A DNA stretch of 64,000 bases from an uncultured Planctomycetales bacterium (lineage in GTDB: Bacteria; Omnitrophota; Gorgyraeia; Zapsychrales; Fredricksoniimonadaceae): positions 271,300 to 335,299 of the forward strand of contig CAZNDZ010000001.1 in the NCBI GenBank assembly GCA_964572155.1. The letters are read 5' to 3'. The notes under the pieces are model-generated. The model saw only the letters and a program-made list of their open reading frames with translations, was not told the DNA's origin and made no database searches. Of the stretch, positions 33,214-54,940 are shown piece after piece; the stretch's first letter is position 1, and every line of letters starts with the position of its first letter. Both the position numbers and the translations under genes were made by a program.

Positions 33214-36200
33214 ATGGTTTCCAAAAGAAGCATCCTAAGCGCAGCAATTTTAATTTCATTCCTATTTACAACCATTATCCCTGCCAACCGCGTTTTTGCA
33301 CTTGAAAGCACCCTTTTAACATTACCAAAACCTGGGACCATGGTTGCTGTCAGTCAACCGCTGGTGCCTGTTATGCTTAAAGGCTTACAGATTAATCCCA
33401 AAAATCCGTTGATCGTTGATTTCTTAGTTTCAAAAGGCGATGAGGTTTTAGGCCAAGCGCAATATTACAAAGAAATTGAAACCTTAGCCCGATATTTCCT
33501 CGCCAGCATGGCCATTCCAGAAGATCAATTATGGGTTAACTTATCCCCATTTGAAAAAGACAAGATCATAACCGACCCTTTAAGTCAAACCGAGATGGGC
33601 CAAAATATGTTGGCGCAAGATTATTTGCTTAAGCAATTAACAGCGTCGATGATTTACCCTGAAAAATCATTGGGGAAAGAATTTTGGAGCCGTATTTATG
33701 AACAAGCCAAGAATAAAACAGGTAATGCGAATATTCCTGTTAATACCTTTAATAAGGTGTGGATCTTAGCCGACACAGCCAATGCCGTTGAAAAAGGCAA
33801 CACCGTCATGATCACCGATGCGCATTTGAAAGTCATGTTGGAAGAAGATTATTTAGCCGCTAAGAAGCATGATGTTGTCTCAAACAATGAAAATTCTAGA
33901 ATCATCAGAGAGCTCATCATTCCGGAACTAGAAAAAGAAGTAAATACAGGCAAAAATTTCGCCCCATTGCGCCAAATCTTCAATGCTTTTGTGTTGTCTG
34001 TTTGGTATAAGCAAAACCTAAAACAATCCATCCTCAATCAAGTTTACGCCGATAAAACCAAACTGGGCGGCATCGAAGCCAAAGACAGACAAGCCAAACA
34101 AAAGATCTATGAGCGTTATATCCAAGCTTATAAGAAGGGCGTATTCAATTACATTAGAGAAGACAAAACACAGGGTGTCTCACAGCCACGCAAATATTTC
34201 TCAGGCGGAGAAGTCATCTCAGCGCAACATGTGAAATTTACCCGTGATGCAGCGATGTTTGCCGAGGCATTAACAAAGCCGTTGGATAGGGCGCGAGTTG
34301 AATTTGATGCAGCCATGAGAAGCGATGATCGCGGCAATTTCTTGTCTGTGATCGATAATGCAAACACGGATAATTTGCCCGAAGCAGCGGTTGCTATTCT
34401 TGAACAGCGCGCCAAAGACATTACAACAAGCGTCATAACAAAAAATGTGATTGAAGAAACACAGTCATTAGGGATACCCGTTAACATTAGGGTTAAGGAA
34501 ATAGCAGACCAAGATAATGTTTATAATGCCGAAAACATCATACAAAATGGCTATATCATTGAATATTCAAATGACATTAATCGTGAAAAAGGTGAAGGCG
34601 ATGCGGTTATTTATGTAACCAGTAGCTTTAGAAAGAAAATCGCTGATAACAATGGGTTGTTTTATTTTTATGTAAGAAAGATTCTAAAGATATATGAAAC
34701 GTCGGGCAATGCTGGCAGACAAAAAGAAGTGGATTTTATAAAAGCAAAAATAGAAGATGAAAAGCAAAGATTGAATGGGAGGGCAAAGATTGAAAAATCT
34801 TTGGCTTTAAGGATTCCTCCTGAAAGTTTCCCATGGGTATTGTTAGAGCGCGAAGCCAATGCATTATTAATCAATCCAACGTTATCGAAAGAACAGCGGA
34901 GCCCAGAGTATTTCAAAGAACGCGTAAAACACATTTTCCCAAATAGAAAGTTTAAGAAGATTGTTGTTCCGGGAACAGTGGCGTTTGAAGCATCGCAAGA
35001 AGCGTATCGATTGATGAAGAACAATGCTAATTTAAAGCTTATCAATGCCATGGATGGTGTGGCAAATTATGCAGATACAATCCCATCCACGGTCAAAGGG
35101 ATGATGGATCGTTTGAAAGAAGGCAAGCCTATTACCTTTGCATTTGGTGCTTCGAAATATAATCCGTCCTCTATCGCACACATTTCTGTCACCTTAGACG
35201 GAACATTCGCTCAAACAGGTGCATCCAGTTACATTGTCAATGTAACGCTCGAAGATGTCCGCAAGCCCTCGGTAAAAAAGTCAGCAAAGTCTCGTCTTAA
35301 ATTAGCCAAGGCGGATATCGAAGGTATTTTTAAGAATTTATTTACCATCTTAGATGTGAGTGAGCCAATCAATGGGTATGATCTAGGAAAATATAATGGG
35401 GAAGAAGTCTTCTTTCTAATTATCAAAATGTTAATACCTTATGGTTTGCAGGGTCCGCAATATTATGTCGCTGGTGAAGACCATTACTTTATTTTTGCAC
35501 CGTTGGGCAATGATCCTCAAAGCAAGTTCATTCAGTGGGATTTGATGGAAAATGAAAATGTACGGCAGCATTATACGTTTTATGCCAGCGAGTTTAATGG
35601 GGATGATTGGAAAACGTATCAAGAATTAGTTCGTCGTCAGGTGGTGTTGAGTAAAAATTTAGGACCAAGCACGGAAGCTAGATCCTTCTATTCAGATGAG
35701 GATAGTGCGCTCGATCGTAACGTTAAAGAAGGTATTATTAATGGCATCATTCAGGCTAAGACAAAAGAAAGATTGCTAGATGTTATGAATGCCGCGTCGA
35801 CGTTGCCCCGTTTTGATACAGCGGGTAAGGCGGTGGCAATTAACTTAGAGCATGACATACAAAAGAGTAGCGTTAAGGCGGTTTTGGTTCTTCCTCATCG
35901 ACAAGGTGCGCGGGGGCACGATAGTTTAAGAGATCAATTGGTTGAGGAGAAGAAACTAATCGTTATGCCCATGGAAGGGATCAAGCATGCTGTTTCAGCA
36001 ACAACTAATAGAAAATTCTTAGAACAAATTTTAACAGGCGTCTTTGATTATAATTATGGTTACGGGTTGACTATGGAAACCATGGAAAATATGAACAAAG
36101 ATCCCGAAATATTTCGCATCCTTGTACGACAAAGCGGCGTTAAGTTGCCCTTAGCATTACCATTGTTAATGCCAGAGCCGAGCGAACTAAAGGATTCAGT

Positions 36201-36720
36201 TAAACAAAAAGATTTTGAATTAAAAAGAGAGTTGCTAAAGTTAGGCGCACATCATGAAGAGGGCACAACACCTGCAGGCGATGAGTCGTACATTAAAGTG
36301 TTTGATGCGATGGGCAAGGAAGCCGTTTTTGTTGAATATTACATTGTAAATGGTCTAGATGAGCATGAGGGCGGGAGATTAAAAGATAAGAATACTGTAG
36401 AATACACGAAGATCACCGTCAATAAAGAAAGCCCAAATGGCCAAAAGATTTTAAAGCTCATTGAGGATTATGTGAAGCATTTAAATGATGCTGCGATGGT
36501 TTCTAAAGATATTGTGAATACGACACGCAATGAAAATAATGTGGGCGGTATCGAGCTTAATCGGAAAGATTTGAATTTGAATGTTACAAAAGAAGGGCAG
36601 GGGTTGCAGTTTGAGATGGATCCTGTTTTGTTGGAAGAGTTGAAGTCAGATAATTTTGGTGGGTTTAGACCGACGGTGTTGAGCATCACACCATTGAGGG
36701 CAAGCCCTGCATTGAATTAA
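33214..36720 (+). CDS. Giant secreted protein A (1168 aa). It has a signal peptide, a conserved N-domain (shared with B), a variable core and a conserved ~50-aa C-terminal module.
   Basis: A long uninterrupted ORF with signal peptide MVSKRSILSAAILISFLFTTIIPANRVFA. Residues ~30-340 are ~60% identical to protein B. The last ~50 aa align with B's C-terminus. Confidence 0.8.
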   Translation: MVSKRSILSAAILISFLFTTIIPANRVFALESTLLTLPKPGTMVAVSQPLVPVMLKGLQINPKNPLIVDFLVSKGDEVLGQAQYYKEIETLARYFLASMAIPEDQLWVNLSPFEKDKIITDPLSQTEMGQNMLAQDYLLKQLTASMIYPEKSLGKEFWSRIYEQAKNKTGNANIPVNTFNKVWILADTANAVEKGNTVMITDAHLKVMLEEDYLAAKKHDVVSNNENSRIIRELIIPELEKEVNTGKNFAPLRQIFNAFVLSVWYKQNLKQSILNQVYADKTKLGGIEAKDRQAKQKIYERYIQAYKKGVFNYIREDKTQGVSQPRKYFSGGEVISAQHVKFTRDAAMFAEALTKPLDRARVEFDAAMRSDDRGNFLSVIDNANTDNLPEAAVAILEQRAKDITTSVITKNVIEETQSLGIPVNIRVKEIADQDNVYNAENIIQNGYIIEYSNDINREKGEGDAVIYVTSSFRKKIADNNGLFYFYVRKILKIYETSGNAGRQKEVDFIKAKIEDEKQRLNGRAKIEKSLALRIPPESFPWVLLEREANALLINPTLSKEQRSPEYFKERVKHIFPNRKFKKIVVPGTVAFEASQEAYRLMKNNANLKLINAMDGVANYADTIPSTVKGMMDRLKEGKPITFAFGASKYNPSSIAHISVTLDGTFAQTGASSYIVNVTLEDVRKPSVKKSAKSRLKLAKADIEGIFKNLFTILDVSEPINGYDLGKYNGEEVFFLIIKMLIPYGLQGPQYYVAGEDHYFIFAPLGNDPQSKFIQWDLMENENVRQHYTFYASEFNGDDWKTYQELVRRQVVLSKNLGPSTEARSFYSDEDSALDRNVKEGIINGIIQAKTKERLLDVMNAASTLPRFDTAGKAVAINLEHDIQKSSVKAVLVLPHRQGARGHDSLRDQLVEEKKLIVMPMEGIKHAVSATTNRKFLEQILTGVFDYNYGYGLTMETMENMNKDPEIFRILVRQSGVKLPLALPLLMPEPSELKDSVKQKDFELKRELLKLGAHHEEGTTPAGDESYIKVFDAMGKEAVFVEYYIVNGLDEHEGGRLKDKNTVEYTKITVNKESPNGQKILKLIEDYVKHLNDAAMVSKDIVNTTRNENNVGGIELNRKDLNLNVTKEGQGLQFEMDPVLLEELKSDNFGGFRPTVLSITPLRASPALN

Positions 36721-36791
36721 GAGGGCAACAACATTGATGTTGTTGCGTATCGATTAACATGGATGTTAAACGTAATTCCAAGGAGTTTTAC

Positions 36792-39700
36792 ATGAACGGA
36801 TGTCGCAAATACATTTCTTTAACGGTGTTGGTCGCTTTCTTTTGCTCGACGTTGACGCCCATTAAAAATGCCAATGCTGCGCCTTTGGTTGCGGGTTTAC
36901 CCACGCCTGGGGCCATGGTCAATTTAAGCGCAACATATACGCCGCTATTGATCAAAGGCTTGCGTGTTCATCCAGAAAATCCATTGGTGTTTGATTTTAT
37001 CGTCGACACAGGCAACTCGCCCATTAAGAGCGACTCTAAAGAATTGCGTGCGCAGTCCGAAAAGCTCATCAAATATTTTTTAGCGACATTAACCATCCCC
37101 GAGAAAGATTTGTGGGTCAACCTTTCTCCTTATGAAAAAGATCGCATCATCGAAGAACCATTAGGCCAAACCGAACTAGGCCGCGACATGTTGGCGCAAG
37201 ATTACTTGCTCAAACAATTAACTGCCTCCTTGGTTTATCCTGAAAAAGAATTAGGTAAGAAATTTTGGGACAAAGTTTATGCTCAAGCCCGCGAACGTTT
37301 TGGTGTTACCAATATTCCGGTCAACACGTTTAACAAAGTTTGGATTTTGCCTGATCAAGCCGACATTTTTGTCCGCAACAACACAGCCTTTGTTGTTAAT
37401 GGTCATTTGAAAGTTATGCTTGAGGAAGATTATTTGGCATCAAAGAAAAACAGCGTCGCTAGCAGCAGTGAGAATTCTCAAATTATTCGGGAGATTATTT
37501 TGCCTGAGATTGAAAAAGAAGTTAATCAAGGTCAAAATTTTGCCCCATTGCGTCAAATCTTTAATTCCATGATTTTAGCGACGTGGTACAAAAAAAGCCT
37601 CAAAGAAGCGCTGCTCAACCAAGTGTATGCAAATAAAGCCAAGATCAATGGCGTCGATGCAGATGATAAAGCGATTAAAGCCAAGATTTACGAACAATAT
37701 TTACAAGCCTATAAGAAGGGTGTTTTTAATTATATCAAAGAGACAAACACATCAAATGGTCAAGTTACCCCCAAGAAGTATTTCTCCGGCGGGGAAGTCT
37801 TTACTAATATCCCTGTAAGTGAAATTTCAAATCCTTCACCCGCAATGATTGCACCAGCAGGCAGTTTATTTTCTGTGAATGCAGCGATGAGTAGCAGCGC
37901 TACTGTTTATAGAGCGGCAAGATTAAATGGTCTTGAGAAAGCTCAAAAAGCTAAAGAAGATGAAATAAATACCACGGTTAATCGTTATTTTGAAGCTTTG
38001 CAATATGCAGAACCACTTCAACAAAGACAGGTAGCTGAATATCAGGGTTTGGCTAGATTTATTTTGGAGGACTTAGATGAGCATGTTGATTCAGCGACGA
38101 GAAAGAAGCTCATTGCAAGCGTCATGACAAACATTGTGGGTTGGGCAAAGCAAGATCTAGATGGGAAATTGGATCCAAATGCAAAAGCTGTTTTTTCTTT
38201 AACAGCGTTTCCAATCATTCATTGGGGACACATCGAGTTGATCTTAAGAACGCTCAATCAAAAACATTTGTCTGGCCTTTCACTAGATCTTAGTGCTCAA
38301 AGTGCGAATAATCCATTAATTGGGGCTTCGTATGAGGACAGGATGTATTTGTTAAAAATCATGTTGCAAAGGTTTAATGGAAGTTTCTCGAGAGACAAAT
38401 TGACAGCGATTAATGAAGATCAGCGTCCAGAAGAAACCGGCGAACGCAGGCTTTTGGAGAGCATCAAAACAGCCAATAAAGGACAAACGCTTTATTATCC
38501 TGTTGGAAAAGGCTATGAGAGTACTATAGAACAATTTGCTGCATGGGCGCGAAATTCAGAGAATGCTAAGATTCTCGAAGAAAGGGATTTAAAACTCGTT
38601 GTTCTCGTCAATAGATTAAGCGAAGCTCAAAAAGTTTCTGCTAAACAAATAGCAAACAGGGTTAGTGTGGAAGTTTTAGATGGTGTTGATTTAGGCATTA
38701 ATAACACCGCCATCAGAGCGGGGCTCGCAAGCACTCCTAATAAGCCAGCAATTAACGGCATATGGTTTATTCCAAAGTCATTGGTTTTGCATCTTGCACG
38801 CATATCTCCAAGCACTTTAGGAAATATCATGGGGATTCCCGACATTCTTAAAGACATTGATCAAAAAGGCATGAGTTCAAGCATTGCTGTCTTAAAAGAC
38901 TTTATTGATAATGTTTATTCTGCACAAGGAAATTACCTGATCACAGAAGAGATTGTAGAGTTGTTCATGCCCAATCTAGCAGATGATAAAAAACAGGTTT
39001 TGGCGGATAAAATGCAATCTCTGTTGGATAAAGCGATGACTCAAATTAATCCAAGAGAAGTTGCTGCCGGCATCAGGTTTTGGGAAGGGTTGGATAAGAC
39101 AACAGTTATTAAGGGTGATTATTGGGCTTTACAAGAAAAGGATGTGTCGGATTTAGACAGCATTTCAGCATCTGAAGGTAAAGAATTGGAAAGCATTGGC
39201 GCCAATACCTTGAGAAATGGCCAAATTGCGGTGATGGGGCTTTGGGCAGGCGCAAGCTCTAGAATGAATACACATGAAGCGCCAGCTGAGATTAAGAAGA
39301 TAGTTAAGGGAAAAGAATTAGGGTCAAAAGCAGTTGTTCCAATTGGACAATATAATGGCGATGTTATTACGTATGCCGATATTGCCGCGTTTAATTTAAA
39401 GCGATTATTTGATCAGATCGATGCAGCTGCTAAAAAGGCAGGCATTGTGTCTAATGTTACTAATAATGTCGTTGGTTTTATGACCAATGATGCGTATCAA
39501 TCAGAACATGATGCAATGTTTATAGCGCATCAAAATTATGGCATGAAGAATCCCATACATTCATTCAGACAGCGCTTAGGTCCTATTTTTCAAGCACGTC
39601 CAATTGATGTTGAGAAATATTTTGGAGAAGAAAATAAACAAACATTTAAAAATGAAGAAGAGCGAAGTGCTTGGAGACAGAAAAAAGAAAGAGCTTTGAA

Positions 39701-42140
39701 AATTGCAGGAGAGTCAAGTTTACGCATTGATTCTAGGGGAGACGAGAGCGCTGTTATTGTCCCTGAAGATAGACAGCCGTTAGGGCATGGAGAATTTCTA
39801 ATGCAGCTTATTGAGTCTGGGGAAATCATAAGACTTATTGATCAAGGGATTAGATTTGTCTCTATTAGAAATGTAGATAACTATGCAGCAAAGTATGACA
39901 GTATGTGGCTTCGGACGATAGGGTATGCCGTTAAGAACAATCTCGACTTTTTGATAGAGAATTCATTGCGTGTTCCAGGACAAAAAGGTGGGGTCGGTGT
40001 CGGTACACCTAACGGACATGTTATCGGAGAAGATCCAATTCTGAATGCGGATATTGATAAAACAACAGATCGGCCCAAAGTTCCATCTACTTCAGGAAAA
40101 TGGATGAATAATGCCGTTGGTATTGCAAGCATACCTTACATTTTGCAATTTTTTAAGCAAGAGGGACAAAGTGATGCTGAATTAATTGATGAGTTAAGAA
40201 ATGCAAACGCAGAACAGCGTGCTGCGATTGCCGATCGAGGCAGAAAACTACTTCCAAAAATTTACGACGTTAAACCTGGAAAGTCTTCCGACGAGAAGTA
40301 TAAGGGCGGCTTAACAAGTAAGGGTGAAACAAATCTTTGGACATCTACAATTGTTTCGGGAAAAGACAAGAAGATTGCAGTTGTTGGTGTCAGAGGCATT
40401 GGGCATTTTGATTTAAATGCTTTTAAAGCAGCAACAGCTGAACAAAAAATTGAGATGTTAAGAAGAGTTCGTTTTATGGCAACGAAACAGTGGGATGTTC
40501 CAGAATCATCAAGGGTTAAATTAAAGAAAGAATTAGAAACATTGTTGGGCAGAGAAATGACAGAAGAAGAAGCGGGCTTAAGATTGGAAAGTTACGAAGG
40601 AAATAAGCCTCTCGCAGACCCAATGATAAAATATATTATGGAAGCCCCCTTAGTTGACGAAAATATTTTCCAAGGCATGAAAGATGATCCTGCAATGTCA
40701 GGCCAAGTTGGGCGAGGTGAGGATCAATTGCAGCAGAAGTTATTCACTACAGAACAAATGGGTGCTGGTGAAGCGGCTTTAGTAGCAACCTTGAATCAAA
40801 AGCCATTGACAATTGAGGAGCAGAGATCCTATTTGGAAAAGGCAAGAAATGCGTTCTTTAGTGAAGTTCAAGCAGTGCCTGAAATTATGAGTGGTATGCA
40901 AGATGCGTTTAAGCGATTTCATATTACTAGCATCACATTTGAAAGTGCTAGACAAGATCAACTCCCAAGAAATTTAGAGGCGTTGAAGAATCAACTAAAT
41001 GTTATTAAGAACACAGCTGTGCAATTGATGCAGAAGGCAGCGCAAGATAAGATCAATACGCTTCTTCCTATTTTGGTACAAACGGATAAGTTTGGAAGAA
41101 AGAAAATTGAGAATCTTCAAGTGTTACAAATAGAACTTAACGCATTAAAGAATTCTAACGTCAGTGCAGATCAACAATTTGATGCGTTAAAAATCATTTT
41201 TAATAAACTCAAAGCATTAGATCAGGCGATGACCGTTGCAGAGCTTAATCGTATTAATGTTTTGTATCCCAGCGACGAGAGCGTTAGGATGCTTGATAAG
41301 ATTAAAGAATCAGATATTGTGTCTTTGGGATTAGTAAATTCAGATGAGGATATAGAAGCCCCAGAAAAAGCGCGTGGATTTTTAAATGGCGAGTTTTCAG
41401 AGCAAGATCTTCAAAATATAACAACTGTTCAAAGAGGAACAGAAATATTCCAGTTTCTTGAAAAAGTAGGATTCTTAGTGCGTGTAAATGGCCATGCGAT
41501 TTCAAGCCATAGGAGTCAACTTGAATTAAGAAGTTTCATAGAAATGAACTTTCCAGAGAACTTAAATGTTGTTGATTTCTTCAATCAATTAAGAAGGCCT
41601 TCGGTAAGATACTATCCTAGAATGCCGGAATTATTGGTTGTTAAGAATGCGACTTTTGATGTTATCGCTGGAACTCGGGTTATTCCTGATACAGCATCAA
41701 AGGGCCAGAAAGATTATCCTTTGGGGTATACAAGTGCAGTAAAGGCAATTTACTTTTCCGAAAGATTCCTTGAGCGCATGAAGGATCAGGGCGTAAAGTT
41801 AGACGACCTGCTTGTTTTTGTGAATGCTGGAGAAACTCCCAAAGAGCGAGCGGAAATGTATGCCAAGTATCAAGCTTACAAGAGAATGTTGGCAAATAGA
41901 GACGATCAAGCCCAGTTAGCAAATCCAGGCGGTATTGATCTTAATACGAAGGGTATGAGATCCTCTGTTACGGGGGATAAGATTGATATTCAATTTGATC
42001 CGGCGATGGTTGAGCAGTTTAAACGTGGGGATTTTACGGGTGTTCGACCGGTGATCTTAAATGTGACGCCGCTCACAAGCGTGTTGCCATTATTAGGACT
42101 CGCGCCCCGTCGTGAAGACGATGTTGCATTGGGCGTTTAA
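36792..42140 (+). CDS. Giant secreted protein B (about 1782 aa). It has a signal peptide, the shared N-domain, a UDP-glucose-pyrophosphorylase-like nucleotidyltransferase domain, a helical region and the shared C-terminal module.
   Basis: The start is chosen at ATG 36792, 6 nt after AAGGAG. The track ORF starting at 36759 has no Shine-Dalgarno. Signal peptide is MNGCRKYISLTVLVAFFCSTLTPIKNANA. The nucleotidyltransferase motifs are …QPLGHGEFLMQLIESGEIIRLIDQGIRFVSIRNVDNY… and …QKGGVGVGTPNG…. Confidence 0.8.
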   Translation: MNGCRKYISLTVLVAFFCSTLTPIKNANAAPLVAGLPTPGAMVNLSATYTPLLIKGLRVHPENPLVFDFIVDTGNSPIKSDSKELRAQSEKLIKYFLATLTIPEKDLWVNLSPYEKDRIIEEPLGQTELGRDMLAQDYLLKQLTASLVYPEKELGKKFWDKVYAQARERFGVTNIPVNTFNKVWILPDQADIFVRNNTAFVVNGHLKVMLEEDYLASKKNSVASSSENSQIIREIILPEIEKEVNQGQNFAPLRQIFNSMILATWYKKSLKEALLNQVYANKAKINGVDADDKAIKAKIYEQYLQAYKKGVFNYIKETNTSNGQVTPKKYFSGGEVFTNIPVSEISNPSPAMIAPAGSLFSVNAAMSSSATVYRAARLNGLEKAQKAKEDEINTTVNRYFEALQYAEPLQQRQVAEYQGLARFILEDLDEHVDSATRKKLIASVMTNIVGWAKQDLDGKLDPNAKAVFSLTAFPIIHWGHIELILRTLNQKHLSGLSLDLSAQSANNPLIGASYEDRMYLLKIMLQRFNGSFSRDKLTAINEDQRPEETGERRLLESIKTANKGQTLYYPVGKGYESTIEQFAAWARNSENAKILEERDLKLVVLVNRLSEAQKVSAKQIANRVSVEVLDGVDLGINNTAIRAGLASTPNKPAINGIWFIPKSLVLHLARISPSTLGNIMGIPDILKDIDQKGMSSSIAVLKDFIDNVYSAQGNYLITEEIVELFMPNLADDKKQVLADKMQSLLDKAMTQINPREVAAGIRFWEGLDKTTVIKGDYWALQEKDVSDLDSISASEGKELESIGANTLRNGQIAVMGLWAGASSRMNTHEAPAEIKKIVKGKELGSKAVVPIGQYNGDVITYADIAAFNLKRLFDQIDAAAKKAGIVSNVTNNVVGFMTNDAYQSEHDAMFIAHQNYGMKNPIHSFRQRLGPIFQARPIDVEKYFGEENKQTFKNEEERSAWRQKKERALKIAGESSLRIDSRGDESAVIVPEDRQPLGHGEFLMQLIESGEIIRLIDQGIRFVSIRNVDNYAAKYDSMWLRTIGYAVKNNLDFLIENSLRVPGQKGGVGVGTPNGHVIGEDPILNADIDKTTDRPKVPSTSGKWMNNAVGIASIPYILQFFKQEGQSDAELIDELRNANAEQRAAIADRGRKLLPKIYDVKPGKSSDEKYKGGLTSKGETNLWTSTIVSGKDKKIAVVGVRGIGHFDLNAFKAATAEQKIEMLRRVRFMATKQWDVPESSRVKLKKELETLLGREMTEEEAGLRLESYEGNKPLADPMIKYIMEAPLVDENIFQGMKDDPAMSGQVGRGEDQLQQKLFTTEQMGAGEAALVATLNQKPLTIEEQRSYLEKARNAFFSEVQAVPEIMSGMQDAFKRFHITSITFESARQDQLPRNLEALKNQLNVIKNTAVQLMQKAAQDKINTLLPILVQTDKFGRKKIENLQVLQIELNALKNSNVSADQQFDALKIIFNKLKALDQAMTVAELNRINVLYPSDESVRMLDKIKESDIVSLGLVNSDEDIEAPEKARGFLNGEFSEQDLQNITTVQRGTEIFQFLEKVGFLVRVNGHAISSHRSQLELRSFIEMNFPENLNVVDFFNQLRRPSVRYYPRMPELLVVKNATFDVIAGTRVIPDTASKGQKDYPLGYTSAVKAIYFSERFLERMKDQGVKLDDLLVFVNAGETPKERAEMYAKYQAYKRMLANRDDQAQLANPGGIDLNTKGMRSSVTGDKIDIQFDPAMVEQFKRGDFTGVRPVILNVTPLTSVLPLLGLAPRREDDVALGV

Positions 42141-42181: not shown

Positions 42182-43417
42182 ATGAGCGAACAGGCGAAGA
42201 ATAAGAAATTAAATGTTTCATCTGCAGAAGAGTTGAAGATCCTGCGCACCATTGTGGACATTGCGTCCTCCGAGCTCGATCTTGTATTAACCCTTCAGTT
42301 GATTGTTAAAATTGTTACTGAAATTACCGCCGCTGATTCGGTTTTCATTTATCTCTTTGATGATAAGAAAGAAAACTTGGTGCTCATGGCATCCAAGACT
42401 AGCCATAAAAAAGAATTAGGGCAGTTGGAATTAAAGGTGGGCGAAGGTATTACCGGGTGGGTAGCTAAAGAGAACATGCCCGTTGCCATCAAGAGCCATG
42501 CCTATAAAGATCCTCGCTTTAAAGGGTTTGATGTGTTGCCAGAAGATCGCTACGAAGCCTTCCTTTCGGTGCCTATAGTATATAAGGGAAAAGCCATCGG
42601 GGTTGTTAACGTTCAACATAAACGCGAACAAGATTATTCCCAAACAACGGTTAACCTGCTTGAGATGATTGCCAAGCAAGTTGGCGGCGTCATTGATCAT
42701 GCGCGTCTTTTTGAAGAAACCAAGCAAAAAGCGCTGCAGTTTGATTCTTTGGTCAAGGTTAGCCAAAGCATCACCTCCGAACACTATTTAGACGAAATTT
42801 TAAATCTGATTGTGGTTGTGACCGCCGAGATGCTTAACTCTAAGATTTGCTCGATCATGTTGTTAGATGAAAAGGGCACAGAGTTATCGATTAAAGCAAC
42901 ACAATCATTAAGTGTGGACTATAAAAAGAAGCCAAATATTAGCGTAGAAAATTCTCTAACTGGTTCTGTTATAAAGACTAAAGAACCAGCTGTGGTTTAT
43001 GATGTGCAAAAAGAAGACAGGTATGCATATCGAGATCTAGCCTCCAAAGAAGGGTTAACCTCGATGGTGGCCGTTCCCATGATCCTCAAAGATAAAGCCA
43101 TTGGCGTTATCAATGTTTATACCAAGAAACACCATCGCTTCTCAAAAGAAGAGATCAATGTGTTGCAAATGGTTGCCAACCAAGCAGCGGTGGCGGTTGA
43201 AAATACCAAATTGATGGAAGAAGCCCTTAAAGCCAAGGAAGCCTTGGAAACACGCAAGTTAATCGAGCGCGCCAAGGGCATTATCATGAAAATGAACGGC
43301 CTCTCAGAAGACGCGGCCTATAAATTGATTCATAAAAAGAGCATGGATACCTGCCGATCAATGAAAGAAATCGCTGAGTCGATTATCTTAATGTCGGATT
43401 TGCAAAAGGGCATCTAG
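42182..43417 (+). CDS. GAF-GAF-ANTAR RNA-binding antitermination regulator
   Basis: Two GAF domains (…GEGITGWVAKENMPV…; …LTGSVIKTKEPAVVYDV…) and a C-terminal ANTAR helix bundle (…ALETRKLIERAKGIIMKMNGLSEDAAYKLIHKKSMD…). Confidence 0.8.
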   Translation: MSEQAKNKKLNVSSAEELKILRTIVDIASSELDLVLTLQLIVKIVTEITAADSVFIYLFDDKKENLVLMASKTSHKKELGQLELKVGEGITGWVAKENMPVAIKSHAYKDPRFKGFDVLPEDRYEAFLSVPIVYKGKAIGVVNVQHKREQDYSQTTVNLLEMIAKQVGGVIDHARLFEETKQKALQFDSLVKVSQSITSEHYLDEILNLIVVVTAEMLNSKICSIMLLDEKGTELSIKATQSLSVDYKKKPNISVENSLTGSVIKTKEPAVVYDVQKEDRYAYRDLASKEGLTSMVAVPMILKDKAIGVINVYTKKHHRFSKEEINVLQMVANQAAVAVENTKLMEEALKAKEALETRKLIERAKGIIMKMNGLSEDAAYKLIHKKSMDTCRSMKEIAESIILMSDLQKGI

Positions 43418-43437
43418 GGCTACCTTAAAAAATTTTA

Positions 43438-43465
43438 TTGACAAAATCGTTTTGTAGTATATACT
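43438..43465 (+). promoter_or_regulatory. Sigma70-type promoter for the amtB-1 leader: TTGACA, 16-bp spacer, TATACT.
   Basis: TTGACA is at 43438-43443 and TATACT at 43460-43465. Confidence 0.45.
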
Positions 43466-43598
43466 TACAACCGTAGTAAAAAATGAACGTTCGAAGCAAC
43501 GATGTTTCGGGCGATATTAAGGGCAACGTTTACGTCCTCTGACTGGCAAGATATATAAAGCCGCGGGGGATTTTTTGTTTTATACATATAGAAAACAT

Positions 43599-43662
43599 CA
43601 GTGACTGATGTGAAGGGCACAGAGGCTCAATCGTATTATTGAATACAGGTTGGGCTTTTTTT
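43599..43662 (+). promoter_or_regulatory. Leader RNA element: the CAGTGACT motif, a hexaloop hairpin GGGC-ACAGAG-GCTC, and an overlapping intrinsic terminator. This is a putative ANTAR target.
   Basis: The hexaloop hairpin is at 43615-43628. Its 3' arm GCTC is the start of the terminator 5' arm GCUCAAUC (43625-43632). That arm pairs with GGUUGGGC (43648-43655, 6 Watson-Crick pairs and 2 G-U). An inner GTATT/AATAC extension is present. The stem is followed by TTTTTTT at 43656-43662. Confidence 0.5.
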
Positions 43663-43686
43663 ATTGTCAAAATCAAGGAGGTACTT

Positions 43687-43809
43687 ATGGTATCTAAACA
43701 AGCAACTTTGGAACGATTCTTACATGCAATGGGTTTTTGTGTGGCTTTCGCGGTGATCGCGGTGGCGGCTGGCATGTTTTGGGCAGTTGAACATCATATT
43801 TTAGTGTAA
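43687..43809 (+). CDS. Small hydrophobic ORF (40 aa, one TM helix) immediately upstream of amtB-1
   Basis: ATG sits 5 nt after AAGGAGG (43675-43681). The product is MVSKQATLERFLHAMGFCVAFAVIAVAAGMFWAVEHHILV. It is below the 60-aa ORF-track cutoff. Confidence 0.4.
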   Translation: MVSKQATLERFLHAMGFCVAFAVIAVAAGMFWAVEHHILV

Positions 43810-43859
43810 ACAGATAACAAACGTATAAACAATAATAACAAAAACAAAGGAGTCAAGAA

Positions 43860-45095
43860 ATGGACGCAAATCCAATTAATGCCGGAGACACATCATGGGT
43901 TCTGGTCTCAACAGCGCTCGTTATGTTGATGACCCCGGGCTTAGCCTTCTTCTACGGCGGCATGGTCAGACGTAAGAACATTTTAGGTGTTTTAATGCAA
44001 TGTATGATCTGTTTGGCGCTGGTTAGCGTCTTGTGGGTTGTATATGGTTACAGCTTAGCGTTTGGTAAAGGTAATGCGTTTATCGGCGGTTTGGATTGGG
44101 CTATGCTTAAGGATGTTGGTCAAACAGCCAACGCTGATTATGCAGCAACAATTCCTCACCAAGTGTTTATGATCTTCCAAGGCATGTTCGCGGTGATCAC
44201 GCCTGCGCTTATCATTGGTTCTTTCGCAGAGCGCATGAAGTTTTCCGCATTCGTTGTTTTCACCGTTTTATGGTTAACGCTTGTATATTCTCCTATCTGT
44301 CACATGGTTTGGGCTGTTGGTGGTTTAGTCCGCGGTTGGGGTGCACTTGACTTCGCCGGTGGTACTGTTGTTCACATCAACGCAGGTATCGCAGGTTTAA
44401 TCTCTGCCATCTACTTAGGTAAACGTATCGGTACTGAAAAACCTGGTATGCACAATGTGCCTTTCGTTGTTTTGGGTGCAGCATTGCTCTGGTTTGGTTG
44501 GTTTGGTTTCAACGCTGGTTCTGCATTAGCAGCTAACGGTTTAGCTGGTTCTGCATTTGTCGTTACAAACACAGCCGCAGCTGCAGCAGCATTAGCATGG
44601 GCTGTTATGGAATGGATCTTTGCAGGTAAACCAACCATGATCGGTACAGTTTCTGGTGCCGTCGCTGGTTTAGTTGCGATCACTCCTGCAGCAGGTTTCG
44701 TTGATGTGGGCGGAGCGCTTATCATCGGTTTAGTTGTTTCTGTCATCTGCTACATGATGGTTGCTTTTGTGAAGACAAAGTTAGGGTACGATGATACATT
44801 AGATGCATTCGGTGTTCACTGTATCGGCGGTATTTGGGGCGCTTTAGCCACTGGTTTATTTGCTCAAAAGGCTATAAACTCTGCCGGTGCTGATGGTTTG
44901 TTCTATGGTAATCCTGCTCAATTCATCATTCAGATCAAAGCGGTATTGTTTACGGTTGCGTACACAGCCGTTGTCACATGGGTGATCTGTTTCGTGGTTG
45001 ACAAAGTCATGGGCTTGCGTGCTAATGCTGAAGACGAAGTCATGGGCTTGGATTTGAGCCAACATCATGAACGTGCATACACAATTTTAGACTAA
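43860..45095 (+). CDS. amtB: Ammonium transporter (Amt family), copy 1
   Basis: 411 aa with an 11-TM Amt fold and the conserved twin-His region. Confidence 0.9.
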   Translation: MDANPINAGDTSWVLVSTALVMLMTPGLAFFYGGMVRRKNILGVLMQCMICLALVSVLWVVYGYSLAFGKGNAFIGGLDWAMLKDVGQTANADYAATIPHQVFMIFQGMFAVITPALIIGSFAERMKFSAFVVFTVLWLTLVYSPICHMVWAVGGLVRGWGALDFAGGTVVHINAGIAGLISAIYLGKRIGTEKPGMHNVPFVVLGAALLWFGWFGFNAGSALAANGLAGSAFVVTNTAAAAAALAWAVMEWIFAGKPTMIGTVSGAVAGLVAITPAAGFVDVGGALIIGLVVSVICYMMVAFVKTKLGYDDTLDAFGVHCIGGIWGALATGLFAQKAINSAGADGLFYGNPAQFIIQIKAVLFTVAYTAVVTWVICFVVDKVMGLRANAEDEVMGLDLSQHHERAYTILD

Positions 45096-45123
45096 TCTAA
45101 CTTTTTTCACGAAAGGAAAGGCA

Positions 45124-45465
45124 ATGAAATTAATTATCGCAATCATCCAGCCTCATCGCCTCGACGATGTAAAGCGCGAGTTATATGCGGCGGATGTTAA
45201 TTTGATCACCGTATCAGAAGTGTTAGGCCACGGCCGTCAAGTTGGTGTTGACGAATTTTACCGCGGTGTTAAAGAAACAGGTAACTTGTTGCGTAAGATC
45301 CAAATTGAGATCGCGGTCAACGAAGATTTCGTTGAACCATCCATCAAGGCGATCATCAAGGGTGCACGCACAGGTAAAATCGGCGATGGTAAGATCTTCG
45401 TCTTAGATTTACCACGCACCATCCGTATTCGTACGGGCGAAGAAGGCACCAAGGCCATCGGCTAA
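45124..45465 (+). CDS. glnK: Nitrogen regulatory protein P-II (GlnK-like)
   Basis: 113 aa with the P-II fold and T-loop …GHGRQVGVDEFYRGVKE…. Position 51 is Glu rather than Tyr. Confidence 0.9.
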   Translation: MKLIIAIIQPHRLDDVKRELYAADVNLITVSEVLGHGRQVGVDEFYRGVKETGNLLRKIQIEIAVNEDFVEPSIKAIIKGARTGKIGDGKIFVLDLPRTIRIRTGEEGTKAIG

Positions 45466-45474
45466 GTTTGCCGC

Positions 45475-45503
45475 TTGACTGAAAATAAATAACACGATAT
45501 CAT
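45475..45503 (+). promoter_or_regulatory. Sigma70-type promoter for the amtB-2 leader: TTGACT, 17-bp spacer, TATCAT.
   Basis: TTGACT is at 45475-45480 and TATCAT at 45498-45503. Confidence 0.45.
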
Positions 45504-45546
45504 GGCTCGTCTTTATGGGCGATGATGTCTGTAGGGCATAAGCTTT

Positions 45547-45596
45547 GAGGCTTGAGGATTCTGTTAAACATAGAATTCTCAGGCCTCTTTGTTTTT
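45547..45596 (+). terminator. Intrinsic terminator/attenuator within the amtB-2 leader
   Basis: A 16-bp stem GAGGCTTGAGGATTCT/AGAATTCTCAGGCCTC with 2 mismatches or wobbles and a 9-nt loop. It is followed by TTTGTTTTT and lies 80 nt upstream of the amtB-2 ATG. Confidence 0.6.
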
Positions 45597-45675
45597 GTGG
45601 CATTGGTGCCAGCGGTTCCGATGAGGGAAAAGGCGATAATCAAAGGATATATGATGATGCAGGGGAGTTTATATA

Positions 45676-46914: not shown

Positions 46915-46940
46915 TCGCCTGTTTTAGGTATTAAAAAAAC

Positions 46941-46969
46941 TTGACTTTATGGTCGATTTTCAGTAAAAT
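46941..46969 (+). promoter_or_regulatory. Sigma70-type promoter for the glnN leader: TTGACT, 17-bp spacer, TAAAAT.
   Basis: TTGACT is at 46941-46946 and TAAAAT at 46964-46969. Confidence 0.45.
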
Positions 46970-46970
46970 T

Positions 46971-47046
46971 CAGTACTTAATTTGAGGGCACAGACGTCCT
47001 CCTTGAACCACAATGTTAGTGTGCGCCAAGGAGGACTTTTTATTTT
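46971..47046 (+). promoter_or_regulatory. Leader RNA element: the CAGTACT motif, a hexaloop hairpin GAGGGC-ACAGAC-GTCCTC, and an overlapping intrinsic terminator. This is a putative ANTAR target.
   Basis: The hexaloop hairpin is at 46984-47001. Its 3' arm GTCCTC is the start of the terminator 5' arm GTCCTCCTTG (46996-47005). That arm pairs perfectly with CAAGGAGGAC (47027-47036). The stem is followed by TTTTTATTTT at 47037-47046. The terminator 3' arm contains an AAGGAGG Shine-Dalgarno. Confidence 0.5.
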
Positions 47047-47079
47047 ATGGAATCTAACAACAACCAGGGGGGTCTATGA
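47047..47079 (+). CDS. 10-codon upstream ORF MESNNNQGGL. Its stop overlaps the glnN start codon (ATGA).
   Basis: ATG at 47047 directly follows the terminator T-tract. The stop TGA is at 47077-47079 and overlaps glnN ATG 47076-47078. The only strong Shine-Dalgarno in the area (47028-47034) serves this uORF. Confidence 0.35.
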   Translation: MESNNNQGGL

Positions 47080-53906: not shown

Positions 53907-53919
53907 GAGAGGACGTTGC

Positions 53920-54915: not shown

Positions 54916-54940
54916 TTTAAAAATCATGGAGGGATTTATC

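What the first reader, a model, noticed from the sequence alone, without database searches (positions are those of the whole stretch)
39200..40150. UDP-glucose-pyrophosphorylase-like nucleotidyltransferase domain embedded in a signal-peptide-bearing 1782-aa protein
Within giant protein B the segment …IAVMGLWAGASSRMN…(≈220 aa)…QPLGHGEFLMQLIESGEIIRLIDQGIRFVSIRNVDNYAAKYD…QKGGVGVGTPNG…WMNNAVGIAS… has the same order and spacing as the hallmark motifs of the UGPase/UAP (UDPGP) family. Those motifs are G-rich NB-loop, P.GHG, N[IV]DN, K.GG and the F/W.NN element. Human UGP2 has PPGHGDIY…FVSNIDNL…KGGTL…FNTNNLW.

A sugar-1-phosphate nucleotidyltransferase fold in an exported multi-domain protein is unexpected, because NTP substrates are cytoplasmic. 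It could act inside a host cell if the protein is an effector. It could also be a repurposed binding or transferase module.
Basis: partly seen in the sequence, partly recalled or inferred. Interest (0 to 1): 0.7.

Follow-up and report, generated by a model that had tools for sequence, protein, structure and literature searches.

The report
Exported-looking UDP-glucose pyrophosphorylase module in Omnitrophota
The segment encodes a complete, probably active UDP-sugar pyrophosphorylase domain inside one member of a very large Omnitrophota-only protein family, in which ordinary cytoplasmic enzymes sit between a secretion signal plus conserved N-terminal domain and a conserved C-terminal domain, suggesting sugar and energy metabolism outside the cytoplasm.

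Summary
All five quoted motifs lie at 39225-40130 in ORF 36792-42140 (1782 aa).

Support for UDPGP identity:
- Pfam UDPGP: E=2e-7, above the curated cutoff.
- An 18-sequence profile hits plant UGPase at 2.5e-10.
- An AlphaFold model (pLDDT 89) matches only UAP/UGP structures (Foldseek E=5e-18).

The full module spans about 39039-40694. Its motifs are invariant across relatives only 31-41% identical.

In relatives the module is fused to phosphoglucomutase, UDP-glucose dehydrogenase, NDK or PGK. This points to genuine UDP-glucose synthesis.

The host protein is not a one-off. More than 4000 database proteins share three features:
- a canonical Sec-type signal peptide;
- a ~300-aa N-terminal "cap" with no Pfam match and no known fold;
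- a ~70-aa C-terminal cap.

Every genomic locus examined is from an Omnitrophota MAG. Between the caps sit varied housekeeping enzymes of glycolysis, gluconeogenesis and nucleotide metabolism. The upstream gene (33214-36720) is a paralog.

Standalone, signal-less versions of the enzyme also exist, one next to a capped copy.

The most likely reading is an active enzyme deployed outside the cytoplasm within an exported metabolic toolkit. Localisation and activity are inferred, not shown.

The parts
33214..36720 (+). Upstream paralog (ORF A, 1168 aa). It has a signal peptide, an N-cap 55% identical to that of protein B, a ~750-aa cargo of unknown type, and a C-cap (GGIELN...ITPL).
   Evidence: tblastn of the caps against the window. 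No Pfam or PDB hit for the cargo.
36777..36782 (+). Shine-Dalgarno AAGGAG, 9 nt upstream of the ATG at 36792.
   Evidence: Sequence read. Homologs P0010 and P0018 start at the equivalent Met.
36792..42140 (+). Gene for protein B (1782 aa plus stop). The mechanical ORF begins at 36759.
   Evidence: An identical protein, P0001, is recorded on three contigs, the longest 1.34 Mb. One Logan contig from a different sequencing run carries the identical gene.
36792..36878 (+). Predicted Sec (SPase I) signal peptide: MNGCRK-YISLTVLVAFFCSTL-TPIKNANA, with cleavage expected after ANA.
   Evidence: Read by eye. Across 120 homologs: median 34 aa before the conserved LPxPG; net positive n-region in 96%; small-x-small after the h-region in 114/120. 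This is a heuristic, not a trained predictor.
36879..37793 (+). N-cap, the family-defining domain (aa 41-345). It runs from 'LPxPGxMVxLS..Y.P...KGL.VHPENP.LFDFI.DTG' through 'WVNLSPYE' and 'TFNKVWI' to 'YFSGG'.
37794..39038 (+). Unassigned region 1 (aa 346-760), nearly unique to this protein.
   Evidence: No Pfam, PDB or homolog hits. Only a weak 25%-identity match to P0062.
39039..40694 (+). Complete UDPGP-family (UGPase/UAP-like) sugar-1-phosphate nucleotidyltransferase module (aa ~761-1312).
39240..39269 (+). Nucleotide-binding loop variant LWAGASSRMN. A, G and R are invariant in 18 relatives.
39324..39341 (+). SKAVVP. S, K and A are invariant. It is the likely counterpart of the 'PK' lysine that follows the NB loop in UGP/UAP.
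   Evidence: The equivalence is inferred from order and spacing and was not aligned by a tool.
39777..39791 (+). PLGHG. G-H-G is invariant and aligns with PPGHG of plant and Leishmania UGPases.
39870..39881 (+). NVDN. N, D and N are invariant and align with N-S-D-N / N-G-D-N of UGPases.
39984..39992 (+). KGG. G-G is invariant. The Lys is present here but replaced by S, A, V, D or R in some relatives.
40101..40112 (+). WMNN. The first Asn (N1117) is invariant and the Trp is nearly so. W-x-N is aligned by HMMER with 'LWVN' of plant UGPase.
40320..40340 (+). KGETNLW. K, E, N and W are invariant or nearly invariant. It is a candidate counterpart of the phosphate-binding Lys region.
   Evidence: No sequence alignment to solved structures was obtained.
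40470..40493 (+). RFMATKQW. R, F, K and W are invariant. It resembles the 'RFLPVK' element of eukaryotic UGPases (resemblance recalled from memory).
   Evidence: The equivalence is untested.
40695..41900 (+). Unassigned region 2 (aa 1313-1714). It has one sub-threshold spectrin-like match; the rest is unknown.
   Evidence: Pfam Spectrin_3 at E=0.0015, below the cutoff. No PDB hit.
41901..42137 (+). C-cap (aa 1715-1793): PGGIDLN...FDPAMV..FKRGDFTGVRPVILNVTPLTSVLPLLGL plus a charged tail. It includes a 19-aa moderately hydrophobic stretch at 42048-42104.
   Evidence: Shared by most of the 120 homologs (44-50 of the 94 cap ORFs in MAG loci, many of which are truncated). Hydropathy 1.62. No Pfam hit.

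Best explanation
Window 39039-40694 encodes a full-length UDPGP-family enzyme module that most likely still catalyses UTP + glucose-1-phosphate <-> UDP-glucose + PPi, or the same reaction on a close sugar-1-P.

The module is one interchangeable 'cargo' in a modular protein family found only in Omnitrophota in every locus examined. Each member has a cleavable Sec-type signal peptide, a ~300-aa conserved N-cap, one or more enzyme modules of cytoplasmic type, and a ~70-aa conserved C-cap.

The signal peptide would send the whole polypeptide across the inner membrane. The enzyme would then work in an extracytoplasmic space, which could be the periplasm, the cell surface or the interface with a host or prey cell. 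It would work alongside exported paralogs that carry phosphoglucomutase, NDK, adenylate kinase, PGK, PPDK and other enzymes. Together these could interconvert sugar phosphates and regenerate NTPs locally, for example to supply UDP-glucose to the exported glycosyltransferase domains already reported on Omnitrophota giant proteins.

Shown here: domain identity and fold, motif conservation, the family architecture, its restriction to Omnitrophota in all loci examined, its multi-copy nature, and the fusion partners.

Inferred: catalytic activity, substrate, actual export, and the role of the caps as a targeting or anchoring device.
For: Domain identity:
- Pfam E=2e-7, above the cutoff.
- PDB phmmer E=2e-6.
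- Profile E=2.5e-10, with PxGHG, NxDN, KGG and WxN aligned to Arabidopsis UGPase.
- AF2 pLDDT 89 and pTM 0.89.
- The 50 listed Foldseek PDB hits are all UAP/UGP, best E=4.6e-18, TM 0.5-0.64.

Likely active: 41 invariant columns across 18 sequences that are 33-41% identical to the query. These include the NB-loop G/R, SKA, GHG, N-D-N, GG, K-x-E-x-N-x-W and RF...K.W.

Substrate and pathway, from fusions of this same module:
- PGM/PMM: P0003, P0005, P0016, P0017, P0020, P0133.
- UDP-glucose 6-dehydrogenase immediately downstream: P0126.
- NDK: P0015, P0022.
- PGK: P0011, P0013.

Family:
- 4149 hits among the 8000 candidates scored. All 120 best share the N-cap and most share the C-cap, while the middles differ.
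- 70 of the 120 carry Pfam enzyme domains. These include hexokinase, PGI, PFK, FBPase, PGK, PGAM, enolase, PPDK, PEPCK, malate synthase/ICL, transaldolase, ADK and NDK.
- At least 594 genomic stretches were found. The best 79 loci are all in Omnitrophota MAGs (some records labelled otherwise), from about 50 genomes. Genes often occur 2-3 in tandem, as in the window.

Export signal: canonical n/h/c regions are conserved directly ahead of the N-cap. In the exhaustive search, 33/47 long carriers of this UDPGP clade have SP-like N-termini, against 0/7 standalone ~500-aa versions.

A signal-less standalone copy lies about 1 kb from a capped copy in one genome. The capped enzyme is therefore an extra, differently addressed copy.

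Precedent and context:
- Preprints report metabolic Pfam domains on signal-peptide/TM-bearing long Omnitrophota proteins, and GT5/glycogen-synthase-like domains on giant ones (10.64898/2026.06.07.730766; 10.1101/2023.11.21.568195).
- Chlamydia secretes glycogen enzymes and its phosphoglucomutase to run UDP-glucose-fed metabolism outside the bacterium (PMC4829429, PMC9251005).
Against: - No experiment or trained predictor supports export. The signal-peptide call is heuristic.
- UTP, ATP and sugar phosphates are not normally available in a periplasm, so the proposed extracytoplasmic network is speculative.
- The NB loop (AGASSRM) departs from the canonical GGxGTxM, and the Lys of KGG is not conserved in the clade.
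- The catalytic Lys of the C-terminal half could not be mapped by sequence.
- The caps have no recognisable fold or known function.
- No conserved neighbouring secretion or sorting gene was found in 79 loci.
- Two thirds of protein B (aa 346-760 and 1313-1714) is unexplained.
- The query module is the most divergent of its clade, at 31-41% identity to the others, which reach 74% among themselves.
Confidence: 0.5

Rival explanations
1. Delivered effector. The capped proteins are exported and then handed to a host or prey cell. The UGPase module and the other cargo enzymes work in the victim's cytoplasm, where NTPs and sugar phosphates are plentiful, and redirect its metabolism.
For: - The same signal peptide and cap evidence as for the best explanation.
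- Omnitrophota are proposed to be predatory or parasitic nanobacteria with T2SS, Tad and type-4 pili (PMC10066038; 10.1101/2023.11.21.568195).
- The substrate-availability problem disappears.
- The same UDPGP clade occurs in long SP-bearing proteins of Endomicrobiia and of Chlamydiota-labelled MAGs, lineages I recall (own knowledge) as including host-associated members.
- Chlamydia gives a precedent for housekeeping enzymes acquiring secretion signals (PMC9251005).
Against: - A Sec signal alone reaches only the periplasm.
- No translocation domain, pore-forming fold or dedicated injection system was found in or next to these genes.
- The cargo repertoire looks like a self-consistent pathway set rather than a set of toxins.
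- Proteins of 1000-3000 aa are unusual effectors.
Confidence: 0.15
2. Membrane-tethered cytoplasmic metabolon. The N-terminal hydrophobic segment is an uncleaved anchor, or is not engaged by Sec. The enzymes then stay on the cytoplasmic face, and the caps organise housekeeping enzymes on the membrane of an ultra-small cell.
For: - The cargo enzymes are classic cytoplasmic enzymes that need NTPs.
- The 2026 preprint considers an inner-membrane-anchored, cytoplasmic-domain reading for nearly half of long Omnitrophota proteins.
- The query's h-region is only moderately hydrophobic over a 19-aa window.
Against: - Positive charges precede the hydrophobic segment in 96% of members, and a small-x-small site follows it in 114/120. 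This is the signature of cleaved export signals with the bulk of the protein outside.
- No further TM helix could return the chain to the cytoplasm.
- Signal-less standalone copies of the same enzyme exist, one adjacent to a capped copy. This argues for distinct destinations.
Confidence: 0.15
3. Repurposed non-catalytic module. The UDPGP fold is kept as a nucleotide-sugar or glycan-binding domain, or as a structural spacer, on a surface protein.
For: - The NB loop is non-canonical (AGASSRM).
- The KGG lysine is variable in the clade.
- The query module is the most divergent member.
- An extracytoplasmic location would starve a true pyrophosphorylase of substrate.
Against: - All other hallmark residues are invariant across capped and standalone (presumably enzymatic) members.
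- Standalone P0123 is 74% identical to a capped module.
- Repeated fusion to the preceding and following pathway enzymes, PGM and UDP-glucose dehydrogenase, and to NDK is hard to explain for a binding module.
Confidence: 0.08
4. Chance motif resemblance or assembly chimera.
Against: - Significant Pfam, PDB, profile and fold matches.
- The identical protein is recorded on three contigs from NCBI and Logan sources, and one from a different sequencing run was read and translates identically.
Confidence: 0.01

Closest known systems
Eukaryote-type UDP-glucose pyrophosphorylases (PF01704; e.g. Arabidopsis At3g03250 2icx/1z90, Leishmania major UGP 2oef/4m2b, sugarcane 5weg)
   Same: They share the Pfam family, the overall fold, and the order of the motifs P-x-GHG, N-x-D-N, KGG and W-x-N. 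The GHG form of the motif is UGP/USP-like. Fusion partners in relatives (PGM, UDP-glucose dehydrogenase) fit UDP-glucose synthesis.
   Different: - Sequence identity is only about 15% over the fold.
- The NB loop reads AGASSRM instead of GG(L/Q)GT(S/R)M.
- Between the NB loop and GHG there are about 70 extra residues, including a long helical insert.
- The C-terminal part is not alignable by sequence.
- The module is embedded in a 1782-aa protein behind a signal peptide.
- It belongs to a small separate clade. There are 81 representatives at E<=1e-30, and canonical enzymes only appear at about 1e-11.
UDP-N-acetylglucosamine pyrophosphorylases UAP1/AGX1 (8yp3, 1jv1, 2yqs, 4bqh)
   Same: These are the best structural matches, with Foldseek E down to 4.6e-18 and TM up to 0.64. 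The Arg in the NB loop (SSRMN here, GTRLG in UAP by my recollection) is UAP-like.
   Different: The query has P-L-G-H-G. UAPs, as I recall them, have a G-N-G-type motif there, which was not checked here. Identity is 12-15%. No GlcNAc-pathway fusion partners were seen.
Bacterial GalU-type UDP-glucose pyrophosphorylase (PF00483 NTP_transferase)
   Same: The same presumed reaction.
   Different: A different family. No PF00483 hit was obtained. GalU is a small cytoplasmic enzyme.
Omnitrophota long/giant proteins with metabolic domains ('Archaeovorins', 'multi-enzyme metabolic clusters'; bioRxiv 10.1101/2023.11.21.568195 and 10.64898/2026.06.07.730766)
   Same: The same phylum and the same paradox: sugar-metabolism and kinase domains on proteins predicted to carry signal peptides or TM helices. 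PGM/PMM, glycosyltransferase and PPDK domains are reported there.
   Different: Those reports concern proteins above 5-10 kaa with many TM helices. The family here is 0.65-3 kaa, has no internal TM helices, and is defined by a conserved N-cap/C-cap pair. I did not find that pair described in the papers searched.
Chlamydia trachomatis secreted glycogen-metabolism enzymes (GlgA and others; PGM CT295)
   Same: Housekeeping sugar-phosphate and UDP-glucose-dependent enzymes gain a secretion signal and work outside the bacterial cytoplasm. By my own knowledge, not checked here, both lineages belong to the PVC superphylum (PMC4829429, PMC9251005).
   Different: Chlamydia uses type 3 secretion signals on otherwise ordinary single-domain proteins. 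Here the signal is Sec-type, and the enzymes are inserted between two large conserved caps.
Polymorphic toxin / modular effector architectures (conserved trafficking ends, variable payload)
   Same: Conserved ends with swappable middles. The closest cap relative, P0010 (79% N-cap, 76% C-cap), carries a different UDPGP subtype.
   Different: The payloads are central-metabolism enzymes rather than toxins. Both ends are conserved. No immunity genes or known trafficking domains were found.

Membership tests
UDPGP family (Pfam PF01704; UGPase/UAP/USP) | Significant match to the family HMM above the curated threshold | tested here: met
   E=2.1e-7, 30.5 bits against a cutoff of 22. Only profile positions 160-226 of 413 are aligned.
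UDPGP family (Pfam PF01704; UGPase/UAP/USP) | Overall UGP/UAP fold | tested here: met
   AF2 model pLDDT 89. The 50 listed Foldseek PDB hits are all UAP/UGP, E 5e-18 to 3e-15, TM(target) 0.50-0.64, with 450-590 aligned columns.
UDPGP family (Pfam PF01704; UGPase/UAP/USP) | Glycine-rich nucleotide-binding loop L-x2-G-x-G-T-x-M followed by a P-K lysine | tested here: inconclusive
   A variant, L-W-A-G-A-S-S-R-M-N, is present, with invariant A, G and R. An invariant S-K-A follows 19 aa later, further downstream than I recall for the canonical enzymes. Only weak profile matches to UAP chains cover the N-terminal third (8yp3 at E=0.006 for profile positions 41-90, 3oc9 for positions 135-196), and their residue alignments were not displayed.
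UDPGP family (Pfam PF01704; UGPase/UAP/USP) | P-x-G-H-G motif | tested here: met
   PLGHG at aa 1007-1011. G-H-G is invariant in 18 relatives and aligns with PPGHG of 2icx and 4m2b.
UDPGP family (Pfam PF01704; UGPase/UAP/USP) | N-[IVS]-D-N motif (metal/ribose-binding Asp) | tested here: met
   NVDN at aa 1038-1041. N, D and N are invariant and aligned by HMMER.
UDPGP family (Pfam PF01704; UGPase/UAP/USP) | K-G-G lysine | tested here: inconclusive
   K1076-G-G is present in the query and aligns with the VKGG of 2icx. In the clade the Lys is S, A, V, D or R in 6 of 18 sequences, while G-G is invariant.
UDPGP family (Pfam PF01704; UGPase/UAP/USP) | Catalytic Lys of the C-terminal part of the core (the 'RFLPVK'-type Lys of UGPases; recalled from the literature) | tested here: inconclusive
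   Invariant candidates exist: K1188 in K-x-E-T-N-x-W and K1243 in R-F-x3-K-x-W. A profile of this half finds no solved structure by sequence, and the fold search returns no residue alignment.
UDPGP family (Pfam PF01704; UGPase/UAP/USP) | NTP + sugar-1-phosphate pyrophosphorylase activity | not testable with these tools
   Only indirect support: fusions with PGM, UDP-glucose dehydrogenase, NDK and PGK.
Sec-exported protein (SPase I signal peptide) | Positively charged n-region, 10-15-residue hydrophobic h-region, c-region with small residues at -3/-1 | tested here: met
   Query: MNGCRK / YISLTVLVAFFCSTL / TPIKNANA|A. Across 120 homologs, 96% have a positive n-region, median peak hydropathy is 2.4, and 114/120 have small-x-small. 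This is a heuristic script only. There is no lipobox or twin-arginine motif by eye.
Sec-exported protein (SPase I signal peptide) | Demonstrated translocation or cleavage | not testable with these tools
   Needs PhoA fusions or N-terminal proteomics.
Omnitrophota two-cap modular family (not described in the papers I could search) | N-cap (LPxPG...WVNLSPYE...TFNKVWI...YFSGG) directly after the signal peptide | tested here: met
   aa 41-345. It is 46-79% identical to 120 homologs.
Omnitrophota two-cap modular family (not described in the papers I could search) | C-cap (GGIDLN...FDPAM...RGDF.G..P.I..ITP...LLG) at the extreme C-terminus | tested here: met
   aa 1715-1793.
C-terminal sorting signals (sortase / exosortase / T9SS-CTD type) | Short motif + full TM helix + basic cluster, or a recognised CTD domain | tested here: not met
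   The hydrophobic stretch after ITP is 10 residues or fewer in many members. Several proteins end at ...LLGL, and the tail is mixed acidic/basic. No Pfam hit for the C-cap.

The most novel reading that the evidence does not exclude
Omnitrophota run a substantial part of central carbon, nucleotide and nucleotide-sugar metabolism outside the cytoplasm. A cassette system supplies it, in which a Sec signal plus conserved N- and C-terminal caps address duplicated housekeeping enzymes (hexokinase to PPDK, PGM, UGPase, NDK, ADK and others) to the periplasm, the cell surface or the host interface.

There the enzymes would harvest a partner cell's metabolites, regenerate NTPs locally, and feed UDP-glucose to extracellular glycosyltransferases that build the cell coat. 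The UGPase module in this window would be one step of that exported pathway.
Probability: 0.25. Interest if true: 0.9.

Novelty: new variant of a known kind. Interest (0 to 1): 0.68.

Why it matters
The enzyme domain itself belongs to a known family. Its packaging is what matters.

More than 4000 database proteins, in every genomic locus examined from Omnitrophota MAGs, place textbook cytoplasmic enzymes behind canonical export signals and between two conserved domains of unknown fold. If export is real, this challenges the assumption that NTP-dependent sugar and energy metabolism is confined to the cytoplasm.

It would also give a concrete, testable handle on how these uncultured, ultra-small and possibly predatory bacteria exploit partner cells, and on why their long and giant proteins are loaded with metabolic domains.

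It matters for annotation too. Pathway reconstructions of Omnitrophota MAGs that count these capped paralogs as ordinary cytoplasmic steps may be wrong.

The N-cap and C-cap are good candidates for new domain families and for a new targeting or anchoring mechanism.

Tried and rejected
1. **HWGH motif.** The 'FPIIHWGH' string at aa ~488 looked like the HxGH motif of cytidylyltransferases. It has no Pfam or PDB hit and is not conserved in the only weak relative. Dropped.
2. **Residue mapping of the C-terminal half.** A sub-profile of the module's C-terminal half against PDB gave only noise.
4. **Conserved neighbouring genes.** I clustered 615 flanking ORFs from 79 loci to look for a secretion, sorting or immunity partner. 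Only generic response-regulator/kinase-like similarity recurred.
5. **Word-indexed homolog searches.** The search with the module alone returned 4 proteins, and the search with aa 400-760 returned none. The exhaustive HMMER search was needed.
6. **Cargo of ORF A and region aa 1313-1714.** No family assignment.
7. **Sorting signals.** Lipoprotein and Tat signals, and sortase/exosortase or T9SS-like C-terminal signals, were considered from the alignments and rejected.
8. **Organism name for the window.** The identical protein P0001 carries no name or accession in the collection.


Full report
**The gene and the observation**

The + strand carries a 1793-codon ORF at 36759-42140. An AAGGAG Shine-Dalgarno at 36777-36782 lies 9 nt upstream of the second ATG, at 36792. 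The closest homologs begin at the equivalent Met. An identical protein, P0001, is recorded on three contigs, the longest 1.34 Mb, and one Logan contig from a different sequencing run was read and translates identically. It is not an assembly chimera. Residue numbers below count from 36759; subtract 11 for the 1782-aa form.

All five quoted strings are present at 39225-40130.

**Is it a UDPGP domain?**

Yes. Four lines of evidence agree.
- Pfam PF01704 is hit at E=2.1e-7, 30.5 bits against a curated cutoff of 22.
- phmmer against PDB sequences finds Leishmania UGPase at 2e-6.
- A profile of the query plus 17 relatives (A1) finds Arabidopsis UGPase at 2.5e-10. It aligns PLGHG with PPGHG, NVDN with NSDN, KGG with KGG, and W-x-N with LWVN.
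- An AlphaFold2 model of aa 751-1330 is confident (pLDDT 89, pTM 0.89). Its 50 listed Foldseek PDB matches are all UDP-GlcNAc or UDP-glucose pyrophosphorylases, with E from 4.6e-18 and TM(target) 0.50-0.64.

The module spans about aa 761-1312 (39039-40694). That is wider than the flagged interval.

- The distance from the NB loop to GHG is 168 aa, not about 220.
- That distance is still about 70 aa longer than in canonical enzymes, because of inserts.
- The fifth motif aligns with 'LWVN' rather than 'FNTNN'.

**Is it likely active, and on what?**

Across 18 sequences that are 33-41% identical to the query, 41 columns are invariant. They include the following:
- A-G and R of the NB loop (LWAGASSRMN);
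- S-K-A;
- G-H-G;
- N-x-D-N;
- G-G;
- the first Asn of WMNN (the Trp is nearly invariant);
- K-x-E-x-N-x-W;
- R-F-x3-K-x-W.

Two caveats apply. The Lys of KGG varies in the clade. The C-terminal catalytic Lys could not be mapped by sequence, because a sub-profile finds nothing in the PDB.

Domain fusions give functional context. The same module is fused to:
- phosphoglucomutase/phosphomannomutase (P0003, P0005, P0016, P0017, P0020, P0133);
- UDP-glucose 6-dehydrogenase immediately downstream (P0126);
- nucleoside-diphosphate kinase (P0015, P0022);
- phosphoglycerate kinase (P0011, P0013).

PGM, UGPase and UGDH are consecutive steps, and NDK supplies UTP. UDP-glucose (or UDP-hexose) synthesis is therefore the best-supported activity. 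This is an inference.

**A distinct clade, mostly embedded**

An exhaustive HMMER search of 1.84 billion representatives with A1 finds only 81 proteins at E<=1e-30. Canonical 400-520-aa UGP/UAPs appear only at about 1e-11 and match only the core.

Of the 52 strongest hits, 42 are 900 aa or longer (up to 5132 aa) and five are standalone proteins of about 500 aa.

By a crude hydropathy and charge test, 33/47 long carriers start with a signal-peptide-like segment, against 0/7 standalone ones.

Source names, where present, are Omnitrophota, Endomicrobiia and Chlamydiota MAGs.

In one Omnitrophota contig (L002) a signal-less 520-aa copy lies about 1 kb upstream of a capped 1568-aa copy. The gene order is UvrB, UDPGP, CoaX, cap-UDPGP, GroES/EL. 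That standalone protein is 67-74% identical to modules inside capped proteins.

**The host protein belongs to a huge two-cap family**

A search with the whole protein returned 4149 hits among the 8000 candidates scored. BLAST mapping of the 120 best gives this picture:
- all share aa ~15-345 at roughly 50-65% identity (46-79% overall);
- most share aa ~1715-1790;
- only 19 share the UDPGP module, and in those it sits at different positions;
- aa 346-760 and 1313-1714 are almost unique to this protein.

*N-terminus.* Every N-terminus inspected is a canonical Sec-type signal, and the conserved LPxPG...KGL.VHPENP.LFDFI.DTG sequence follows directly. Median length before LPxPG is 34 aa, 96% have a positive n-region, and 114/120 have small-x-small after the h-region.

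*C-cap.* The consensus is pGGIDLN...FDPAMI..F.RGDF.GV.PVI..ITPI...PLLGL, with or without a short charged tail.

*Cargo.* 70 of the 120 proteins have precomputed Pfam enzyme domains. These include hexokinase, PGI, PFK, FBPase, PGK, PGAM (both types), enolase, PPDK, PEPCK, malate synthase/ICL, transaldolase, 6-phosphogluconolactonase, ADK, NDK, GHMP kinase, NAPRTase, Glu dehydrogenase, epimerases and receiver domains.

*Distribution.* A scan of one genome per species found at least 594 stretches. The best 79 loci are all in Omnitrophota MAGs, although some TPA records are labelled 'Planctomycetales'. They come from about 50 genomes and often have two or three cap genes in tandem. Complete members run from about 650 aa to more than 2400 aa.

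*In the window.* The upstream gene at 33214-36720 is a paralog: N-cap 55% identical, C-cap present, cargo unknown.

*Cargo swapping.* The closest cap relative, P0010 (79% and 76% identical caps), carries a different UDPGP subtype.

*Neighbours.* No partner gene recurs next to cap genes.

**Surroundings in the window**

This is ordinary core chromosome. In order:
- YidC, ThrRS, PheST, MgsA, RNase Y, GltX and a GGDEF protein;
- standalone SucCD;
- a DRTGG protein;
- the two cap genes;
- GAF-ANTAR, Amt-PII-Amt, GlnA-III and NadE;
- a GT2-DUF1302 fusion, DUF1329 and a BNR protein.

Nothing marks a mobile island.

**Mechanism**

The best reading (about 0.5) is an active UGPase-type enzyme that the signal peptide sends out of the cytoplasm as one component of an exported toolkit. 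That toolkit handles sugar phosphates, nucleotide sugars and NTP regeneration, and the caps serve as a common targeting, anchoring or assembly device.

Three sources give context.
- Preprints report metabolic domains (PGM/PMM, GT1, GT5/starch synthase, PPDK) on signal-peptide/TM-bearing long and giant Omnitrophota proteins (10.1101/2023.11.21.568195; 10.64898/2026.06.07.730766).
- Omnitrophota are proposed to have a symbiotic or predatory lifestyle (PMC10066038).
- Chlamydia secretes glycogen enzymes and its PGM to run UDP-glucose-fed metabolism outside the cell (PMC4829429, PMC9251005).

The rivals are:
- delivery into a partner's cytoplasm (0.15);
- a cytoplasmic-face tethered metabolon with a non-cleaved anchor (0.15);
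- a non-catalytic binding module (0.08);
- chance (refuted).

Export, activity, substrate and cap function are all inferred. None is shown here.

**Novelty and verdict**

The enzyme is a divergent member of a known family. The two-cap, Sec-addressed cassette family that carries it is not in Pfam, and I did not find it described in the literature I could search. The broader phenomenon has been noted in preprints.

I classify the finding as a new variant of a known kind, with interest 0.68.

Noticed in passing
window 33214-36720 (+): The gene immediately upstream is a paralog of the same two-cap family. It has a signal peptide, an N-cap 55% identical, and a C-cap. Its ~750-aa cargo matches nothing in Pfam or the PDB.
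   Followed up: partly
window 36727-36746: A perfect 9-bp hairpin (CAACAACAT-TG-ATGTTGTTG) lies between the stop of ORF A and the Shine-Dalgarno of ORF B, with no T-run after it. It may be a processing, stability or attenuation element between the two cap genes.
   Followed up: no
homologs P0026, P0028, P0059, P0069, P0091, P0093, P0104, P0105 (IPAKAGI); P0007, P0028, P0090, P0118 (SEAKQS); P0048, P0087 (LVKEGVRGS); P0058, P0091 (MSSPNAxVGDP): The same short peptides recur in frame at two variable loops of the N-cap (around aa 220-235 and 295-340) in many family members. They look like translated copies of small repeat elements that the loops tolerate.
   Followed up: partly
P0002 aa 827-1364 and 1367-1904: Two 100% identical tandem copies of the 538-aa UDPGP module sit in one 2747-aa cap protein. 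This is either a very recent duplication or an assembly artefact.
   Followed up: partly
P0010 (1507 aa), aa 662-729: The closest relative of protein B by its caps (79% and 76% identity) carries a different UDPGP subtype (PGGH..., FNIDNL). It aligns with the query module only at the core. This is evidence of cargo exchange between nearly identical caps.
   Followed up: partly
P0133, P0124 (Endomicrobiia); P0139, P0259 (Chlamydiota-labelled MAGs): The same UDPGP clade is embedded in 2900-3300-aa proteins outside Omnitrophota. These lack the N-cap, and two of them (P0133, P0139) start with signal-peptide-like segments.
   Followed up: partly
window 42182-49196: A nitrogen-control cluster lies directly downstream of protein B: a double-GAF ANTAR antiterminator-type regulator, then Amt, PII, Amt, then type III glutamine synthetase. 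The GAF-ANTAR gene starts only 41 nt after protein B's stop.
   Followed up: partly
window 51414-56269: There is a glycosyltransferase family 2 domain fused to DUF1302 (830 aa), followed by an epimerase and a DUF1329/LolA-like protein. I recall DUF1302 and DUF1329 being described as a paired outer-membrane module (own recollection, not checked here); the fusion to GT2 looks unusual.
   Followed up: no
window 37794-39038 and 40695-41900: Two large parts of protein B (about 415 and 400 aa) have no detectable relatives or family matches. They may be additional, unrecognised cargo domains.
   Followed up: partly
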